A program made the translations under genes and the position numbers. The notes beneath the pieces are model-generated. The model was not told where the DNA came from and did not search any database. It saw only the letters and a list, made by a program, of their open reading frames with translations. 5,513 nt of DNA from a virus. Its lineage: Duplodnaviria; Heunggongvirae; Uroviricota; Caudoviricetes. The DNA lies in IMG/VR virus record IMGVR_UViG_2585427764_000006. One strand, written 5' to 3'. Shown here in pieces: positions 1 to 5,513 of this stretch (the first letter of the stretch is position 1; each line of letters begins with the position of its first letter).

Positions 1-2
1 CG

Positions 3-320
3 GCAAAAGCGTTCGCATACCTGCTGAAACAGTGGGATGCACTGAACGTGTACTGCAGTAATGGCTGGGTGGAAATCGACAACAACATCGCAGAGAACGC
101 CTTACGGGGAGTGGCCGTAGGCCGGAAAAACTGGATGTTCGCGGGTTCCGACAGCGGTGGTGAACATGCGGCGGTGTTGTACTCGCTGATCGGCACATGC
201 CGTCTGAACAATGTGGAGCCAGAAAAGTGGCTGCGTTACGTCATTGAACATATCCAGGACTGGCCGGCAAACCGGGTACGCGATCTGTTGCCCTGGAAAG
301 TTGATCTGAGCTCTCAGTAA
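3..320 (+). CDS. IS66-family transposase, C-terminal fragment (5' end outside window)
   Basis: The frame is open from position 3 (AKAFAYLLKQWDALNVYCSNGWVEIDNNIAENALRGVAVGRKNWMFAGSDSGGEHAAVLYSLIGTCRLNNVEPEKWLRYV...). The EIDNN-AE-ALR...GRKNW-FAGS motif block is, from memory, characteristic of the C-terminus of IS66-family DDE transposases. The GTG at 48 in the ORF track is not the true start. Confidence 0.85.
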   Translation, partial: AKAFAYLLKQWDALNVYCSNGWVEIDNNIAENALRGVAVGRKNWMFAGSDSGGEHAAVLYSLIGTCRLNNVEPEKWLRYVIEHIQDWPANRVRDLLPWKVDLSSQ

Positions 321-321
321 A

Positions 322-350
322 TATCAATACGGTTCTGACGAGTCGCTTAC
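322..350 (-). repeat. Candidate IS66 terminal inverted repeat (right end)
   Basis: The minus strand reads 5'-GTAAGCGACTCGTCAGAACCGTATTGATAT from position 350. The exact IR length cannot be fixed without the left end. Confidence 0.5.
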
Positions 351-351
351 C

Positions 352-1479
352 TTCAGCATCCGGACGTTCGCCAATTTTCGCCTCCCACGTCTCACCGAGC
401 GTGGTGTTTACGAAGGTTTTACGTTTTCCCGTATCCCCTTTCGTTTTCATCCAGTCTTTGACAATCTGCACCCAGGTGGTGAACGGGCTGTACACCGTCC
501 AGATGTGAAAGGTCACGCTGTCCGGCGGCTCAATCTCTTCACCGGATGACGAAAACCAGAGAATGCCATCACGGGTCCAGATCCCGGTCTTTTCGCAGAT
601 ATAACGGGCATCAGTGAAGTCCAGCTCCTGCTGGCGGATGACGCAGGCATTATGCTCGCAGAGATAAAACACGCTGGAGGGGTCATCCGGCGTCCATTTG
701 AGGCCAAACGGCGTCTCTTTGTCGCCAAATTTAAGATACTGCTCCTCCCCGCAGTGCGGGCAGGCAACATGAAAACGCATAAAATGCGGGGATTCACTGG
801 CTGCACGCTCAATCTGGCAGGTGCCTCTCACTTTGGGCGTGGAGCCACGGATGGACTTTGGCCAGACCGAGCCTTCAATACGTTTGTCGCCAAGGAACGT
901 CGGAGAGCCTTCCTGTTCAATATCCTCATCAAAGGCAGCAAGTTCATCATAACCCGCCACATCCACCGACTTTTCACGGTAGTTTTTTGCCGCTTTACCG
1001 CCCAGGCACCAGAAGCCACGACCATTGGAAAAACGCTTCATAGTGAGCGTGTTATCCCGGTGCTTTTTGCCATACCACGGAGCCAGCGCCAGCAGCGACG
1101 GAATATCGCGGATGGTCGGCTCAACGTGGGTTTTCATAAAGTTCTCGGCATCACCATCCGTCGGCAACCAGATAAGGGTGTTGCGCTGCTTATGCTCTAT
1201 GAAGTAGGCATAAACACCCAGCAGCATTTTGGAATAACCAACACGGGCAGACTTCACCACATTCACCTCGCGGACGTAGTCACTGCCCATCGCATTCATG
1301 ATGGCCCGCTGAAAGGGCAGTGTTTCCCAGCGCCCTTCCTGGTATGCGGATTCTTTCGGGAGATAGTAATTGGCATCCGCCCATTCAACGGCGGTCTGTG
1401 GCTCCGGCCGGAACAGTGAGCGAAGCCCGGCGCGGACAAAATGCCGCAGCCTGTTAACCTGACTGTTCGATATATTCAC
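352..1479 (-). pseudogene. A: Terminase large subunit (lambda gpA-like), N-terminal 376 codons, interrupted by the IS66 insertion
   Basis: The translation MNISNSQVNRLRHFVRAGLRSLFRPEPQTAVEWADANYYLPKES...TLGETWEAKIGERPDAE matches lambda gpA as I recall it. Full-length gpA is about 641 aa. After codon 376 the ORF runs into IS-derived sequence (GKRLVRTVLIFTESSDQ...) and stops at 241. The start overlaps the Nu1 3' end by 26 nt, as in lambda. Confidence 0.9.
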
Positions 1480-1999
1480 TCAGCAACCCCGGTATCAGTT
1501 CATCCAGCGCGGCTGCTTTGTTCATGGCTTTGATGATATCCCGTTTCAGGAAATCAACATGTCGGTTTTCCAGTTCCGGAAAACGCCGCTGCACCGACAG
1601 GGGGATCCCGTCGAGAATACTGGCAATTTCACCTGCGATCCGCGACAGCACGAAAGTACAGAATGCGGTTTCCACCACTTCAGCGGAGTCTCTGGCATTC
1701 TTCAGTTCCTGTGCGTCGGCCTGCGCACGCGTAAGTCGATGGCGTTCGTACTCAATAGTCCCTGGCTGGAGATCTGTCTCGCTGGCCTGCCGCAGTTCTT
1801 CAACTTCCCGGCGCAGCTTTTCGTTCTCAATTTCAGCATCCCTTTCGGCATACCATCTTATAACGGCGGCAGAGTCATAAAGCACCTCATTACCCTTGCC
1901 ACCGCCTCGCAGAACGGGCATTCCCTGTTCCTGCCAGTTCTGAATGGTACGGATACTCGCACCGAAAATGTCAGCCAGCTGCTTTTTGTTGACTTCCAT
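1454..1999 (-). CDS. nu1: Terminase small subunit (lambda gpNu1-like), apparently intact
   Basis: The 181-aa product MEVNKKQLADIFGASIRTIQNWQEQGMPVLRGGGKGNEVLYDSAAV... is near-identical to lambda Nu1 as recalled. It begins with the winged-helix DNA-binding region and lies immediately downstream of cosB. Confidence 0.95.
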   Translation of the reverse strand: MEVNKKQLADIFGASIRTIQNWQEQGMPVLRGGGKGNEVLYDSAAVIRWYAERDAEIENEKLRREVEELRQASETDLQPGTIEYERHRLTRAQADAQELKNARDSAEVVETAFCTFVLSRIAGEIASILDGIPLSVQRRFPELENRHVDFLKRDIIKAMNKAAALDELIPGLLSEYIEQSG

Positions 2000-2024
2000 T
2001 GTTCATTCCACGGACAAAAACAGA

Positions 2025-2079
2025 GAAAGGAAACGACAGAGGCCAAAAAGCCCGTTTTCAGCACCTGTCGTTTCCTTTC
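2025..2079 (-). promoter_or_regulatory. cosB terminase-binding R elements (R1/R2-like inverted pair)
   Basis: GAAAGGAAACGACAG at 2025-2039 and its exact reverse complement CTGTCGTTTCCTTTC at 2065-2079 form a perfect 15-bp inverted pair separated by 25 bp. They sit where lambda cosB R1/R2 sit relative to the Nu1 start. An R3-like copy (GAAGAACGGAAATG) is at about 2121-2138. Confidence 0.7.
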
Positions 2080-2176
2080 TTTTCAGGGGGTATTTTAAAT
2101 AAAAACATTAAGTTACAACGAAGAAGAACGGAAATGCCTTAAACCGGAAAATTTTCATAAATAGCGAAAACCCGCG

Positions 2177-2188
2177 AGGTCGCCGCCC
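2177..2188 (-). other. cosN (12-nt cohesive-end segment of the cos site)
   Basis: The plus strand reads AGGTCGCCGCCC, the reverse complement of the lambda cohesive end GGGCGGCGACCT. The flanks also match the lambda ends as recalled (CGCGGGTTTTCGCTATTTATGAAAATTTTCCGG on one side, CCGACAGGTTACG on the other). Confidence 0.85.
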
Positions 2189-2220
2189 CGTAACCTGTCG
2201 GATCGCCGGAAAGGACCCGC
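2189..2220 (-). promoter_or_regulatory. cosQ-containing region (packaging termination element) adjacent to cosN
   Basis: CGTAACCTGTCGGATCGCCGGAAAGGACCCGC is the reverse complement of the sequence that directly precedes cosN at the lambda right end, with apparently one substitution relative to my recollection of lambda. Confidence 0.5.
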
Positions 2221-2224
2221 AAAA

Positions 2225-2239
2225 TGATAATAATTATCA
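2225..2239. promoter_or_regulatory. Fur-box-like 7-1-7 palindrome (candidate iron-responsive operator)
   Basis: TGATAATAATTATCA is a perfect inverted repeat, TGATAAT-n-ATTATCA, matching the core Fur box motif. It lies about 150 bp upstream of the DUF3950 start codon on the plus strand. Confidence 0.4.
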
Positions 2240-2387
2240 TCTGCATGTCACAACGTGCATCTACGCCATCAAACCACGTCAAATAATCAATTATGACGCA
2301 GGTATCATATTAATTGATCTGCATCAACTTAACGTAAAAACAACTTCAGACAATACAAATCAGCGACACTGAATACGGGACAACCTC

Positions 2388-2621
2388 ATGTCAACGAAGA
2401 ACAGAACCCGCAGAACAACAACCCGCAACATCCGCTTTCCTAACCAAATGATTGAACAAATTAACATCGCTCTTGATCAAAAAGGGTCCGGGAATTTCTC
2501 AGCCTGGGTCATTGAAGCCTGCCGCCGGAGACTGTGCTCAGAAAAAAGAGTTTCTCCTGAAGCAAACAAAGAAAAGAGTGACATTACTGAATTGCTCAGA
2601 AAACAGATCAGACCAGATTGA
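2388..2621 (+). CDS. Small basic protein, DUF3950 family (YnfO/YlcI-like prophage protein)
   Basis: The 77-aa ORF MSTKNRTRRTTTRNIRFPNQMIEQINIALDQKGSGNFSAWVIEACRRRL... resembles the small proteins encoded next to noh/Nu1 in E. coli cryptic prophages. Its orientation is opposite to the late genes and the local sequence is AT-rich. Confidence 0.8.
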   Translation: MSTKNRTRRTTTRNIRFPNQMIEQINIALDQKGSGNFSAWVIEACRRRLCSEKRVSPEANKEKSDITELLRKQIRPD

Positions 2622-2677
2622 AGCAATTTAGATAATCGTGCAGACTACACCCCTCATATCACATGGAAGGTACTACA

Positions 2678-3088
2678 ATGGCTCAGGTTGCCATTTTTAA
2701 ACAAATATTCAATAAAGTGCGAAATAATTTAAACTATCACTGGTTTTATTCTGAACTAAAACGTCACAATGTCTCACATTACATTTACTATTTAGCCACA
2801 GAGAATATTCATCTTGTTCTTGAAAACGATAATACGGTTTTAATAAAAGGACAGGGTAAGGTTGTAAATGTAAGATTTTCAAAAAATAAATGCCTTATAG
2901 AAGCCACCTTAAAAGGATTCAAATCAGGAGAGTTATCATTTTACGAATACAGGAAAAATCTTGCTACAGCAGGGGTTTTCAGATGGATTACAAATATCCA
3001 CGAAAACAAAAGGTATTACTATACCTTTGATAATTCATTACTCTTTACTGAGAACATTCAGAACACTACACAAATATTTCCGCACTAA
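2678..3088 (+). CDS. DUF1398 family protein (YbcV/YdfO-like prophage protein)
   Basis: The ORF track gives 2663-3088, but the second ATG at 2678 is preceded by GGAAGG with about 6 nt spacing, so [14 protein letters not shown]... is the likelier start. The C-terminal block [38 protein letters not shown] is characteristic of this family as I recall it. GC content is low, about 25-30% by eye. Confidence 0.8.
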
Positions 3089-3344
3089 ATCATAACGTCC
3101 GGTTTCTTCCGTGCCAGAACCGGACTCGCTGGCATGATGAAATATGTGTACCCGGTAACCCCGGTGTGCATCGTTTTTGATTATTCCCACACACTCGCGC
3201 AGAAGGAGTTCCCCGTCGGGCTACGGTCTCTGTTAATACGGGAATACGGCGACGATACAGCGCATGATGTGTCAGGCTTGAATACCTTTATCCTTTAAAA
3301 GGGATATCAGTTAAGTTATCCCGTGTAGGGTATAAGCCATTATC

Positions 3345-3373
3345 AAAGCCACTCTGTAGGAAGTGGCTTTTGT
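3345..3373 (+). terminator. Candidate intrinsic terminator for the plus-strand moron genes
   Basis: AAAGCCACT (3345-3353) pairs with AGTGGCTTT (3362-3370) around an 8-nt loop, followed by TTTTG. The GC core is only 6 bp, so this is weak to moderate. Confidence 0.3.
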
Positions 3374-3378
3374 AATGG

Positions 3379-3405
3379 CAATAAAAAGCCCCGCGAATGC
3401 GAGGC
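3379..3405 (-). terminator. Candidate rho-independent terminator downstream of the Rz/Rz1 lysis genes
   Basis: On the minus strand GCCTCGC-ATTC-GCGGGGC forms a 7-bp GC-rich stem (one G-U pair) followed directly by TTTTTAT. It sits about 175 bp downstream of the Rz stop. Confidence 0.45.
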
Positions 3406-3579
3406 TAAATCCTGGTATTTGTAATGACTGGCTCTTATCTCAACGCAGCCCCTTACCGCGCGCAAAATGCTCAATATCAAGCATCAGCAATGAGATGTTT
3501 AATCTGGATTCACTCCAGAAGTGAGCACCACCCTGTCTACAGAGCCAGATGTGAAGGATGATGAGTAAAATTATCGCTA

Positions 3580-4047
3580 TCATCGAAGGCATTGCGTCCT
3601 GATGTATTCCTGAAGCGTTCTCAGTGCTGTTTGGTCGCGGATAATTCCGTCCCGGATACCGAGAACGTTTCGTCCAGCAACTGGAGAGAGTTCGACGGTG
3701 GCATCATTGCCCATGCCGGAGGCGCTGGAGGTTTCGGCTGAGGATGGCACAGGGCATTTTCCTTTGACGAGCACCCGACCACCATTATCAAGCTTGCGCC
3801 GAAGAGCATCATTTTCAGCTTTCGCATCAGCTAACTCCTTCGTGTATTTATCATCGAGTGCATCAGCATCACGCTGGCGCTGCTGCATGTCAGTAATGGT
3901 GGCGTTCGCCTTCTCCAGTTCACTGGCCTTGTTATCGCGCTGTTCTTTGTAGGCGATTGCATTATCACGGTAATGATTAACAGCCCATGACAGGCAGACG
4001 ATGATGCAGATAACCAGAGCGGAGATAATCGCGGTTACCCTGCTCAT
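3580..4047 (-). CDS. Rz: Rz i-spanin (inner-membrane spanin subunit)
   Basis: [31 protein letters not shown]... matches the lambda Rz N-terminus with its single N-terminal transmembrane helix and coiled-coil region. The probable start is the ATG at 4047-4045, which overlaps the R stop as ATGA; the ORF track starts 4 codons earlier. The C-terminal third diverges from lambda Rz. Confidence 0.9.
3621..3827 (-). CDS. Rz1: Rz1 o-spanin (outer-membrane lipoprotein), embedded in the +1 frame of Rz
   Basis: [21 protein letters not shown]... has a lipobox (VVGC) followed by a proline-rich segment ([11 protein letters not shown]), and lies wholly inside Rz in another frame, the classic embedded-spanin architecture. 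Confidence 0.8.
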
Positions 4048-4541
4048 TGTTGCCCCCACAAACAGACCTCACGCTCAATCTCACGACGAGTCATCAGGCC
4101 TTTCCATTGCTTACCGCCAGCGTATGCCCAGCGACGTAGCTGGTCACATGCGCCCTTGATATCGCCCTGGTTTATTTTGCGAAGAAGAGTAGATGTTCTG
4201 AAATTGCCTGCGCCCACGTTATAGACGAACGAGTAAAGAGCGCCGCGCGTTGTTTCCGGTATATCGACTTTGATGTACGGGTTAATTTGTCTGGCTACCG
4301 TGGCAAGGTCTTTATTCAGGAGGGCTTTGCATTCTGCTTCGGTATACGTTTTACCGGGAATGATGTCTTTTCCTGTATGCCCGTGACATACAGTCCATAC
4401 GCCAACGATATCTTTGTATGGTATGTAGCTGACACCTTCCAGACCATCGTTACCACTTGGGCCAGTGATTAACACTGATGCTATAGCAATTGCTCCGCCA
4501 CCAATAGCAGCAGCAACGGCTTTTCGTAATGATGGAGGCAT
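4044..4541 (-). CDS. R: SAR endolysin (phage 21 R-type lysozyme)
   Basis: The 165-aa product has an N-terminal Gly/Ala-rich weakly hydrophobic signal-anchor-release domain ([18 protein letters not shown]), then a T4-lysozyme-like catalytic triad at E35, D44 and T50. It is near-identical to phage 21 R as recalled. The start overlaps the S stop (TAATG). Confidence 0.93.
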
Positions 4542-4756
4542 TATTCACCTCTCGCAGCCTTGCGCTTATCTTCTTTAATCTTGAAATAAAGGTTTGTCAG
4601 GTACGTCAGCAGGCCAAATACCAAGCTACCCAGCACACCTATTGCTGCCCACTGTGAGGGCGTGACTTTATCGAGCAACTGTAAAAACCAGTAGCCAGCA
4701 CTGCCTGCGGAGGTGCCGTAGGCAATGCCCGTTGTTAACTTATCCATGGATTTCAT
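4541..4756 (-). CDS. S: Pinholin (phage 21 S-type), dual-start class II holin
   Basis: The 71-aa product [26 protein letters not shown]... has the dual-start motif Met1-Lys-Ser-Met4 (antiholin and holin forms), two transmembrane segments and a charged C-terminus. A strong Shine-Dalgarno GGAGGTGAGGC lies immediately upstream. Confidence 0.93.
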
Positions 4757-4850
4757 AGCCTCACCTCCGCAAATAACGGATGGTGTACACGGTTCGGAAC
4801 GAAGAGGAAAGGTATAGAAGTTACATTAGCGTAAGGCTTGAACATCTATT

Positions 4851-4882
4851 CAAAAAGAAAAACGCCGCGATTATTCTGGCGT
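4851..4882 (-). terminator. Candidate tR'-like intrinsic terminator upstream of S
   Basis: On the minus strand ACGCC-(11-nt loop)-GGCGT is followed by TTTTTCTTTTTG, about 105 nt upstream of the S start codon. The stem is short (5 bp), so this is tentative. The position resembles the lambda late-leader terminator that Q antiterminates. Confidence 0.3.
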
Positions 4883-5002
4883 AGCTGAAAGCATCATACA
4901 ATTATCAAATACGAAAATTACAAAATCATTAAAACGCATCACGTTACATCATGTCTTTTTCTAAAAAAAATCTTGATGAATATTGATGGTGCGTATTACC
5001 GT

Positions 5003-5092
5003 GAAGGAGATCGGTGAGTAACATCGATGGAGATCGGTTCGTGTCACTTTCACAGAACCGTTTTTAAATTACCTTCACTGATCTCCTTCGGT
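5003..5092. repeat. IS21-family terminal repeat cluster
   Basis: GGAGATCGGT occurs as direct copies at 5006-5015 and 5029-5038, the first as GAAGGAGATCGGT from 5003. An inverted copy (GATCTCCTTC, reverse complement of GAAGGAGATC) lies at 5081-5090, overlapping the last istB codons. Confidence 0.5.
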
Positions 5093-5512
5093 CAACGGAG
5101 ATTGTATTTTCCGCATTGATTCTCCTTGAAGTTCGATCTTGATACTGCCATGAACCAGTCGATCTAGGATGGCATCCGCATGTGTGGAGTCTCCGATCAT
5201 TTTGTACCAGTTTTCCACCGGCAACTGGCTCACTACGATGATTGAGCCTCGTTGGTACATCAGATCCACTATTTCCAGCAGGTCGCTACGCTGTTCTGAT
5301 GAGAGAGGTTCCAGCCCCCAGTCATCCAGAAGCAGCAGATCGCTATTATTCAGCCTGGTCAAAAGTTTGCTGTATCTTCCATCAGCATGCCCCTGATAGC
5401 ACTGTTCCATCAGCGCTTTAAGGCGATAATAGTAGACCTTGTATCCCTGTCGGCAGGCATTATGACCAAGTGCACATGCCAGGAACGTTTTACCGCTGCC
5501 GGTGGCCCCGGT
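5075..5512 (-). CDS. istB: IS21-family IstB ATP-binding helper protein, C-terminal portion (5' end outside window)
   Basis: The frame is open to the window edge: TGATGSGKTFLACALGHNACRQGYKVYYYRLKALMEQCYQ... contains a Walker A P-loop (GATGSGKT), then a Walker B-like LLLLDDWG. The ORF track shows only the part from the internal Met at 5410. Confidence 0.88.
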   Translation of the reverse strand, partial: TGATGSGKTFLACALGHNACRQGYKVYYYRLKALMEQCYQGHADGRYSKLLTRLNNSDLLLLDDWGLEPLSSEQRSDLLEIVDLMYQRGSIIVVSQLPVENWYKMIGDSTHADAILDRLVHGSIKIELQGESMRKIQSPLTEGDQ

Positions 5513-5513
5513 C

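What the first reader, a model, noticed from the sequence alone, without database searches (positions are those of the whole stretch)
1..1479. IS66-family insertion splits the terminase large subunit gene after codon 376
The minus-strand ORF matches lambda gpA from Met1 to ...EAKIGERPDAE, then abruptly continues into sequence that on the other strand is the end of an IS66-family element (GTAAGCG terminus at 350; transposase C-terminus at 3-320). This separates the N-terminal ATPase and Nu1-interacting portion from the C-terminal nuclease and portal-binding portion, so the prophage cannot package its own DNA. The 412-aa chimeric ORF (gpA 1-376 plus a 36-aa IS-encoded tail) could still be translated, because it keeps the native start overlapping Nu1.
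Basis: partly seen in the sequence, partly recalled or inferred. Interest (0 to 1): 0.55.

Follow-up and report, generated by a model that had tools for sequence, protein, structure and literature searches.

The report
ISCro1 insertion splitting prophage terminase gene
A common jumping gene (the 2.7-kb insertion sequence ISCro1) has landed inside the DNA-packaging enzyme gene of a lambda-like virus lying dormant in an E. coli chromosome; this is a real but ordinary step in the decay of dormant viruses.

Summary
Window 351-1479 (minus strand) encodes residues 1-376 of a lambda-type terminase large subunit (372/376 identical to lambda gpA). Window 1-350 is identical to the last 350 bp of the 2,699-bp IS66-family element ISCro1, ending in the family's GTAAGCG terminus. 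The break falls after the first base of codon 377. An uninterrupted prophage in E. coli 101EVA matches window 351-4989 with no mismatch and serves as the empty site. The window is a whole draft contig (JORX01000098.1; its chimeric protein is named for E. coli 6-537-08_S3_C1) that ends inside ISCro1 on one side and ISEc12 on the other. The other IS junction therefore cannot be read from it. I predicted the reciprocal product (IS left end + 8-bp duplication + gpA 377-641, 293 aa), and it exists exactly in isolate 6-537-08_S3_C2. This supports a simple insertion rather than a deletion. The break lies inside the nuclease domain (Pfam 322-600), so neither fragment is a complete enzyme. Nu1 and cos are intact. 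This is ordinary prophage decay by an IS and is of low interest. One minor curiosity: two closed genomes carry ISCro1 at the same base in a diverged A allele, apparently from an independent insertion.

The parts
1..350 (+). Right-hand 350 bp of a 2,699-bp ISCro1-family (IS66 family) insertion sequence. The contig ends inside the element.
   Evidence: 0/350 mismatches to the last 350 bp of the TSD-bounded copy L002 6652-9350, and 2/350 to L006 11341-14039. Annotated as 'IS66-like element ISCro1 family transposase' in closed genomes.
3..320 (+). C-terminal 105 codons of the IS66-family DDE transposase (TnpC), stop codon at 318-320.
   Evidence: Pfam DDE_Tnp_IS66 (profile 230-283/284) and DDE_Tnp_IS66_C (1-39/39). 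NCBIfam transpos_IS66 profile 304-386/387.
329..350 (-). Right terminal inverted repeat of the IS. Read inward it is GTAAGCGACTCGTCAGAACCGT, and it matches the left repeat GTAACCGGCTCATTTAAACCGT at 16 of 22 positions.
   Evidence: Ends defined by 8-bp duplications in L002 and L006. The GTAAGCG start of IS66-family repeats is described in PMC12888890.
351..358 (.). CTTCAGCA, the right-hand copy of the predicted 8-bp target-site duplication. It is present once in the empty site.
   Evidence: Empty site L008 6001-6008. ISCro1 makes 8-bp duplications (PMC12115866). The exact reciprocal product in a related isolate needs this duplication to stay in frame.
351..1479 (-). Codons 1-376, plus the first base of codon 377, of a lambda-type terminase large subunit gene A. 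It holds the complete GpA_ATPase domain and the first ~55 residues of the nuclease domain.
   Evidence: 372/376 identical to lambda gpA. Pfam GpA_ATPase 47-285 and GpA_nuclease 322-376, profile positions 2-59 of 294. 0 mismatches to 101EVA.
241..1479 (-). Chimeric 412-aa ORF: gpA 1-376 plus a 36-aa tail (GKRLVRTVLIFTESSDQLSRATDRVPGLPASPGYVQ) read from the antisense strand of the IS end.
   Evidence: Deposited as KEM70915.1 / KEN11251.1 'phage terminase large subunit family protein'.
1454..1999 (-). Intact terminase small subunit gene Nu1 (nohD-type), overlapping the A start by 26 nt.
   Evidence: Pfam Phage_Nu1 1-164/164, E=2.4e-101. The overlap and start context are identical to lambda.
2000..2188 (-). 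Intact cos region: the cosN cohesive-end sequence GGGCGGCGACCT at 2188-2177, followed by cosB up to the Nu1 start.
   Evidence: Exact match to AGGTCGCCGCCC at 2177. Lambda nt 1-190 are colinear with this stretch.
4990..5513 (-). End of a second insertion sequence, ISEc12 (IS21 family; C-terminal part of istB). It is inserted 46 nt from the 3' end of a helix-turn-helix gene upstream of the holin, and the contig also ends inside it.
   Evidence: Pfam IstB_IS21. 99.8% identity to ISEc12 in L010 12762-13285. Identity to 101EVA stops at 4989.

Best explanation
A complete or near-complete copy of ISCro1 (IS66 family, 2,699 bp) transposed into gene A (terminase large subunit) of a lambda-like prophage in an E. 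coli gut isolate. It inserted between the first and second bases of codon 377 and duplicated the 8-bp target CTTCAGCA.

The insertion is evolutionarily recent. The 4.6 kb next to it are still identical to an uninterrupted prophage in another strain.

The gene is split into two pieces.
(i) A 5' piece keeps the native GTG start coupled to Nu1. It encodes the Nu1-binding N-terminus, the whole packaging ATPase domain, the first fifth of the nuclease domain and a 36-residue tail of IS origin.
(ii) A 3' piece encodes the remaining four fifths of the nuclease domain and the C-terminal end.

Neither piece has a full nuclease domain, and the ATPase is no longer joined to the C-terminal end. The prophage therefore cannot make a working terminase, and cannot cut at cos and package its own DNA (inferred, not tested). 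Nu1 and cos remain intact. A second IS (ISEc12) in the same late operon shows that the prophage is accumulating insertions, which is the usual course of prophage decay.

Shown: the junction, the identity of the IS, the empty site, the domain content, and the existence of the reciprocal junction product in a related isolate.
Inferred: that the IS in the source genome is complete, that the 3' piece is retained in this same isolate, and that packaging is lost.
For: Junction fixed to the base against an empty site with 0/4639 mismatches and against lambda.

IS identity: 0/350 mismatches to a 2,699-bp element bounded by 8-bp duplications in two closed genomes. That element carries tnpA-tnpB-tnpC and GTAAGCG-type ends. 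The literature gives the same length and duplication size for ISCro1 (PMC12115866).

Reciprocal junction: the 293-aa product predicted from 'ISCro1 left end + TGCTGAAG + 101EVA gpA 377-641' exists exactly as KEN18745.1 in E. coli 6-537-08_S3_C2. A 265-aa version starting at codon 377 exists as KEM85178.1 in 6-537-08_S3_C3. The window's 412-aa protein is named for 6-537-08_S3_C1. Without the 8-bp duplication the IS-derived N-terminus would be out of frame with gpA, so the exact match also supports the duplication.

Domain content: Pfam GpA_ATPase 47-285 and GpA_nuclease 322-600 in the intact protein. Only profile positions 2-59 of 294 of the nuclease model remain in the 5' piece, and positions 55-286 in the 3' piece.

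Function of the domains, and the requirement for both terminase subunits: PMC7229814.
Against: The window (a whole contig) stops 350 bp into the IS. Neither the completeness of the IS nor the left junction can be read in this assembly.

The reciprocal product was found in related isolates, not demonstrably in the same assembly. Exact look-ups of the possible complete gene calls did not return a second contig attributable to the window's own assembly, and the contigs of the related isolates could not be fetched.

In the only two closed genomes with this same junction (ET881, SW071610), the IS is an 818-bp remnant. There the rest of A and all head and tail genes are deleted. No closed genome holds the reciprocal junction.

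Loss of packaging and expression of the chimeric ORF are untested.
Confidence: 0.85

Rival explanations
1. IS-associated deletion or rearrangement. In the source genome the IS (whole or partial) marks the edge of a deletion or inversion, so the 3' part of A is absent or far away. The gene is then truncated rather than split by a simple insertion.
For: This is exactly the state of the two closed genomes with the same junction. In ET881 only IS positions 1882-2699 remain, abutting a tail-fibre fragment, and the head and tail genes are gone. No closed genome has the reciprocal junction. The window's own assembly gave no detectable reciprocal gene call. ISCro1 copies are known to mediate homologous-recombination deletions (PMC12115866).
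Against: The exact reciprocal product, with the same prophage allele, the same site and the 8-bp duplication, exists in isolates of the same named series. The ET881 junction sits in a different prophage allele and is an independent event, so it says little about this genome. The flank has 0 mismatches to an intact prophage, which argues for a very recent event.
Confidence: 0.12
2. Assembly artefact. The IS end and the terminase fragment were joined wrongly by the short-read assembler and are not adjacent in the real genome.
For: The contig is short (5.5 kb) and both of its ends lie in multi-copy IS elements, a setting where assemblers can make mistakes.
Against: The identical junction occurs in two separate draft assemblies (JORX01000098.1 and JORP01000064.1, with different contig ends). 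The same IS-to-A junction position occurs in two closed genomes. The junction coincides exactly with the true IS terminus, and the matching reciprocal junction product exists.
Confidence: 0.01
3. The split gene still works. The two halves (ATPase fragment and nuclease/C-terminal fragment) are made separately and reassemble into an active terminase, or the IS excises precisely on induction.
For: Both halves retain open reading frames with possible starts. Nu1, cos and the native start context are intact.
Against: The break lies inside the nuclease domain, not in a linker between domains. The 3' fragment has no native ribosome-binding context. The IS is antisense to the late transcript. No evidence for either mechanism was obtained here.
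Confidence: 0.02

Closest known systems
ISCro1 (IS66 family; 2,699 bp, 8-bp target duplication), as described on E. coli plasmids and chromosomes (PMC12115866; PMC8764528)
   Same: The terminal 350 bp are identical to TSD-bounded 2,699-bp copies annotated as ISCro1 family. It has the same GTAAGCG-type terminus, the same transposase C-terminus and the same duplication size.
   Different: Only the last 350 bp lie in the window. The three-gene body and the left end are not visible for this copy.
ISCro1 insertions at other positions of gene A in closed E. coli genomes (e.g. ETEC strain 120899, NZ_CP025916.1)
   Same: The same IS in the same orientation relative to A, in a lambda-like prophage with Nu1 (nohD) upstream. 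It is a clean simple insertion with an 8-bp duplication, and both gene halves are kept.
   Different: The insertion point is 177 bp further into A, with duplication GTTCATCG (L008 5824-5831), and the prophage has a different lysis module.
ET881 / SW071610 prophage remnant at the bio-ybhC (lambda attachment) region
   Same: The ISCro1 right end is joined to A at exactly the same base and in the same orientation.
   Different: The A allele is different: 17 differences in 1,129 bp, one of them 2 nt from the junction. ET881's flank is near-identical to the intact HS30-1 prophage. The IS is reduced to 818 bp and the rest of A and the structural genes are deleted. This is therefore an independent and more decayed case.
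Defective lambdoid prophages of E. coli with damaged terminase genes (DLP12-type nohD regions; IS-disrupted prophages of O157:H7), from general knowledge
   Same: A lambda-like late region (holin essD, lysozyme rrrD, Rz, nohD) whose packaging gene is inactivated while the lysis and accessory genes stay intact. The protein search here also shows many deletion and fusion remnants of gpA.
   Different: The lesion here is a recent, clean IS insertion with no other sequence decay in the 4.6 kb examined.

Membership tests
IS66 family / ISCro1 | DDE transposase (TnpC) with the IS66 catalytic and C-terminal domains | tested here: met
   Window 3-320 matches Pfam DDE_Tnp_IS66 and DDE_Tnp_IS66_C and NCBIfam transpos_IS66 profile positions 304-386/387. 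Only the last 105 residues are in the window.
IS66 family / ISCro1 | Terminal inverted repeats beginning GTAAGCG | tested here: met
   Window 344-350 is the reverse complement of GTAAGCG. This is the true terminus, as shown by TSD-bounded reference copies and by the empty site. Family feature as described in PMC12888890.
IS66 family / ISCro1 | 8-bp target-site duplication | tested here: met
   Seen directly in reference copies (GTTCATCG, GGAGAGAG). For this insertion the evidence is indirect. The exact reciprocal product KEN18745.1 in a related isolate is in frame only if TGCTGAAG is duplicated. It was not read in the window's own assembly.
IS66 family / ISCro1 | Three-gene body tnpA-tnpB-tnpC and full length of 2,699 bp | not testable with these tools
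   The contig ends 350 bp into the element. Reference copies with an identical end have all three genes.
Lambda-type terminase large subunit (gpA / TerL) | N-terminal GpA_ATPase packaging domain | tested here: met
   Pfam PF05876, residues 47-285, E=4.4e-51. 99% identity to lambda gpA 1-376.
Lambda-type terminase large subunit (gpA / TerL) | Complete C-terminal GpA_nuclease (maturation) domain | tested here: not met
   Only profile positions 2-59 of 294 are present in the 412-aa ORF. The intact protein covers positions 2-286 at residues 322-600. The ORF is therefore a fragment of a family member, not a functional member.
Lambda-type terminase large subunit (gpA / TerL) | C-terminal end (residues 601-641, the region assigned to prohead/portal binding in lambda) | tested here: not met
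   The ORF leaves gpA after residue 376. The functional assignment of the C-terminus rests on general knowledge of lambda gpA.
Lambda-type terminase large subunit (gpA / TerL) | Genomic setting: cos, then Nu1, then A, with a 26-nt Nu1/A overlap | tested here: met
   cosN at 2177-2188, Nu1 at 1454-1999, A start at 1479. Colinear with lambda nt 1-1839.

The most novel reading that the evidence does not exclude
Codon 376/377 of lambda-type terminase gene A is a genuine ISCro1 insertion hot spot. The same base and orientation were hit independently in two prophage lineages. Each lineage is essentially identical to its own uninterrupted counterpart: the window versus 101EVA (0/4639 mismatches) and ET881 versus HS30-1 (1/4450 mismatches). 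The two alleles differ 2 nt from the junction, which rules out transfer of the junction by homologous recombination. If real, ISCro1 would be a recurrent, semi-targeted way of disabling lambdoid prophages. The weak sequence preference found in 53 unbiased insertion sites (at most ~0.3 bit per position) does not explain the coincidence. Any hot spot would have to depend on something else, such as local DNA structure or a protein bound there.
Probability: 0.25. Interest if true: 0.3.

Novelty: already known. Interest (0 to 1): 0.1.

Why it matters
It matters little beyond annotation. The 412-aa protein is deposited as 'phage terminase large subunit family protein' (KEM70915.1 / KEN11251.1). It is in fact a gene fragment fused to 36 residues of IS antisense sequence and should be treated as a pseudogene product. 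The case shows how IS elements disable otherwise intact prophages, and how short-read contigs that end in IS copies hide half of such events. It also shows that the missing half can be recovered by predicting the reciprocal junction product and looking it up by exact sequence. The same-base recurrence in a second prophage lineage is a small lead on ISCro1 target choice.

Tried and rejected
(1) Upstream sequence from the source. The window is the entire contig JORX01000098.1, and the second assembly's contig is even shorter, so nothing lies upstream.

(2) Reciprocal junction in closed genomes. A synthetic 300-nt left-junction query found no one-piece match in 5,426 complete E. coli genomes. The two full-coverage hits were two-piece matches from insertions at other positions in A.

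(3) Large protein search with gpA 377-641. It returned only 90%-cluster representatives, none of which was the reciprocal fragment. It did show many Nu1-gpA, RrrD-gpA and internal-deletion remnants.

(4) Fetching the contigs that encode KEN18745.1 and KEM85178.1. I therefore could not show that both junctions lie in one assembly, nor measure how much of the IS those contigs hold.

(5) An apparent conserved motif (CCGGA) just outside the duplication, seen in several ISCro1 insertions. I rejected it. Those hits had been ranked by similarity to my query's flank. In 53 unbiased flanks from a genome-wide scan the motif occurs once, and the mean match to the window flank is at the random level.

(6) Transfer of the junction between prophage alleles by homologous recombination, as an explanation for the ET881 coincidence. 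I rejected it because the alleles already differ 2 nt from the junction, and each flank matches its own intact prophage.

(7) Solved structures for gpA: no sequence match in the PDB.

(8) Rfam scan of the window: nothing at gathering thresholds.

(9) Literature search for the isolate name 6-537-08: nothing found.

Full report
WHAT THE WINDOW IS

The 5,513-base window is the reverse complement of one complete draft contig, JORX01000098.1, of assembly GCA_000713415.1. A second assembly (JORP01000064.1) holds the same sequence from window positions 29 to 5288. Its proteins are deposited under the organism name E. coli 6-537-08_S3_C1.

The contig carries the late region of a lambda-like prophage on the minus strand:
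- holin (4541-4756)
- lysozyme (4044-4541)
- Rz spanin (3580-4059)
- two small plus-strand accessory genes, DUF1398 and DUF3950
- cos
- Nu1 (1454-1999)
- the start of A

Both ends of the contig lie inside insertion sequences. That is why a short-read assembler stopped there.

CHECK OF THE OBSERVATION

The minus-strand ORF 241-1479 is 412 aa.
- Residues 1-376 match lambda gpA 1-376 without gaps, 372/376 identical. The match ends at ...IGERPDAE.
- At DNA level, lambda nt 1-1839 are colinear with window 2188-351 (97.7%) and stop there. Nt 1839 is the first base of codon 377.
- Window 351-4989 has no mismatch in 4,639 bases to an uninterrupted prophage of E. coli 101EVA. Similarity vanishes to the left of 351. 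This gives a clean empty site.

Window 1-350 is identical to the last 350 bp of a 2,699-bp element. In two closed genomes that element is bounded by 8-bp direct repeats (GTTCATCG in strain 120899, GGAGAGAG in Z1323HEC0010), carries tnpA, tnpB and tnpC, and is annotated as ISCro1 family.
- The terminus reads GTAAGCG inward. The two terminal repeats match at 16 of 22 positions.
- Published descriptions give the same length and duplication size for ISCro1 (PMC12115866) and the GTAAGCG repeat start for the family (PMC12888890).
- Frame 3-320 is the transposase C-terminus.

The junction can be stated one base more precisely: 350|351, after the first base of codon 377.

INSERTION OR DELETION EDGE?

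The window alone cannot answer this.

Evidence from closed genomes:
- Among 5,426 complete E. coli genomes, only ET881 and SW071610 have this junction. In them the IS is an 818-bp remnant and the rest of A, with all head and tail genes, is gone.
- No complete genome has the reciprocal junction.

I therefore predicted what a simple insertion would leave on the other side: the ISCro1 left end, the duplicated 8 bp, and codons 377-641 of the 101EVA allele. I enumerated the possible gene calls and looked them up by exact sequence.
- The 293-aa form is MSIKNDGHYFCRAGGNRPDGLNEPVTAEV-MAERKE.... Its first 25 or so residues come from the IS end, and it is in frame with gpA only if TGCTGAAG is duplicated. 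It exists as KEN18745.1 in E. coli 6-537-08_S3_C2.
- The 265-aa form starting at codon 377 exists as KEM85178.1 in 6-537-08_S3_C3.

Same named isolate series, same prophage allele, same site, same IS and same duplication together make strong support for a simple insertion.

The remaining gap is that I could not fetch those contigs, and I could not show both junctions in one assembly. I put 0.85 on the simple insertion and 0.12 on a deletion or rearrangement in this particular isolate.

WHAT IT DOES

In the intact protein, Pfam places the packaging ATPase at residues 47-285 and the nuclease (maturation) domain at 322-600. Lambda TerL has an N-terminal packaging ATPase domain and a C-terminal maturation domain holding the cos endonuclease. 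Both terminase subunits are essential (PMC7229814).

The break at 376/377 lies 55 residues inside the nuclease domain.
- The 5' product keeps the Nu1-binding end, the ATPase, one fifth of the nuclease fold and a 36-residue tail of IS origin.
- The 3' product would keep four fifths of the nuclease fold and the C-terminal end.

Neither can be a working terminase, so the prophage should be unable to cut and package its own DNA. This is an inference and was not tested.

The GTG start, its overlap with Nu1 and the surrounding 60 nt are identical to lambda. The chimeric ORF could therefore be translated whenever the late operon is transcribed. In a lysogen that operon is normally silent (general knowledge).

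cosN (2177-2188), cosB and Nu1 are intact. The DNA therefore remains a potential substrate for a compatible terminase supplied by another phage.

COMPARISON AND NOVELTY

This is a known IS, in a known kind of target, with the known consequence.
- The same IS sits at other positions in A in several closed genomes. One example is 177 bp further on in six ETEC genomes, as clean simple insertions.
- The protein search shows many other decayed forms of gpA.
- The chimeric protein is already in GenBank under a misleading name.

I rate it as already known, with low interest.

SIDE OBSERVATIONS

(a) Same-base junction in a second lineage. ET881's junction is at the same base and in the same orientation, but in a different A allele: 17 differences in 1,129 bp, one only 2 nt from the junction. 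The IS part is identical. ET881's flank matches the uninterrupted HS30-1 prophage with 1 mismatch in 4,450 bp, just as the window matches 101EVA. These look like two independent recent hits on one site.

I looked for a target motif.
- A CCGGA-like pattern in several insertions proved to be an artefact of BLAST ranking.
- In 53 unbiased ISCro1 flanks the pattern occurs once. Only a weak bias inside the duplication is visible, roughly S-N-W-B-A-W-N-C, at most 0.3 bit per position.

The coincidence stays unexplained.

(b) Second IS. The other contig end is ISEc12 (IS21 family). It is inserted at the very base where strain P27_L1_05.20 has ISEc12 in the opposite orientation with a 5-bp duplication.

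(c) IS expansion elsewhere. Escherichia sp. MOD1-EC7003 carries about 50 ISCro1 copies.

Noticed in passing
window 4990-5513; L010 9640-13285: The right end of the contig is ISEc12 (IS21 family). It is inserted 46 nt from the 3' end of a helix-turn-helix gene upstream of the holin. Strain P27_L1_05.20 has ISEc12 (with a nested IS5) at exactly the same base, with a 5-bp duplication GATGG, but in the opposite orientation. This points to independent hits on one target site.
   Followed up: partly
window 350|351; L001 9350|9351; L068 4001: ET881 and SW071610 carry the ISCro1 right end at the same base and orientation in a diverged A allele (17/1129 differences, one 2 nt from the junction). Each flank matches its own uninterrupted prophage: the window versus 101EVA 0/4639, and ET881 versus HS30-1 1/4450. 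This looks like two independent insertions at one nucleotide and is unexplained.
   Followed up: partly
L015-L067 (mostly NZ_PTRE01 contigs): Escherichia sp. MOD1-EC7003 has about 50 contig ends carrying the ISCro1 right terminus. Its IS contig has ~5,950x coverage against ~115x for the rest of the genome, which indicates a large ISCro1 expansion. The 53 flanks show only a weak bias within the 8-bp duplication (S-N-W-B-A-W-N-C).
   Followed up: partly
L054 (SFGJ01000083.1) and L027 (SFEB01000082.1): Two contigs labelled as Clostridiales metagenome-assembled genomes carry the exact ISCro1 terminus, and one of them is a contig of exactly 2,699 bp. They are probably Enterobacteriaceae IS sequence mis-binned into those genomes.
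   Followed up: no
window 2000-2188: The lambda-type cos region is intact: cosN GGGCGGCGACCT on the minus strand at 2188-2177, then cosB up to Nu1. The preceding bases match the right end of lambda.
   Followed up: yes
window 3621-3827 (minus strand): A 68-aa ORF lies embedded out of frame within the Rz gene. It has a lipoprotein-like start (…LIMVVGCSS…) and a proline-rich stretch, which fits an Rz1-type o-spanin. A 50-aa ORF (3440-3592) is annotated as hypothetical in related genomes.
   Followed up: no
window 2600-3100: GC content drops to 28-34% over the plus-strand DUF1398 gene (2663-3088), against ~53% in the terminase region. This suggests an acquired accessory ('moron'-like) gene between cos and the lysis genes. 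No bor gene is present at the place where lambda has one.
   Followed up: no
proteins P0001, P0005, P0007, P0008, P0023; L003 5465-7129: Public E. coli data hold many different gpA remnants: in-frame Nu1-gpA fusions, internal deletions, and a lysozyme(RrrD)-gpA fusion. Terminase loss in lambdoid prophages evidently happens by many routes.
   Followed up: no
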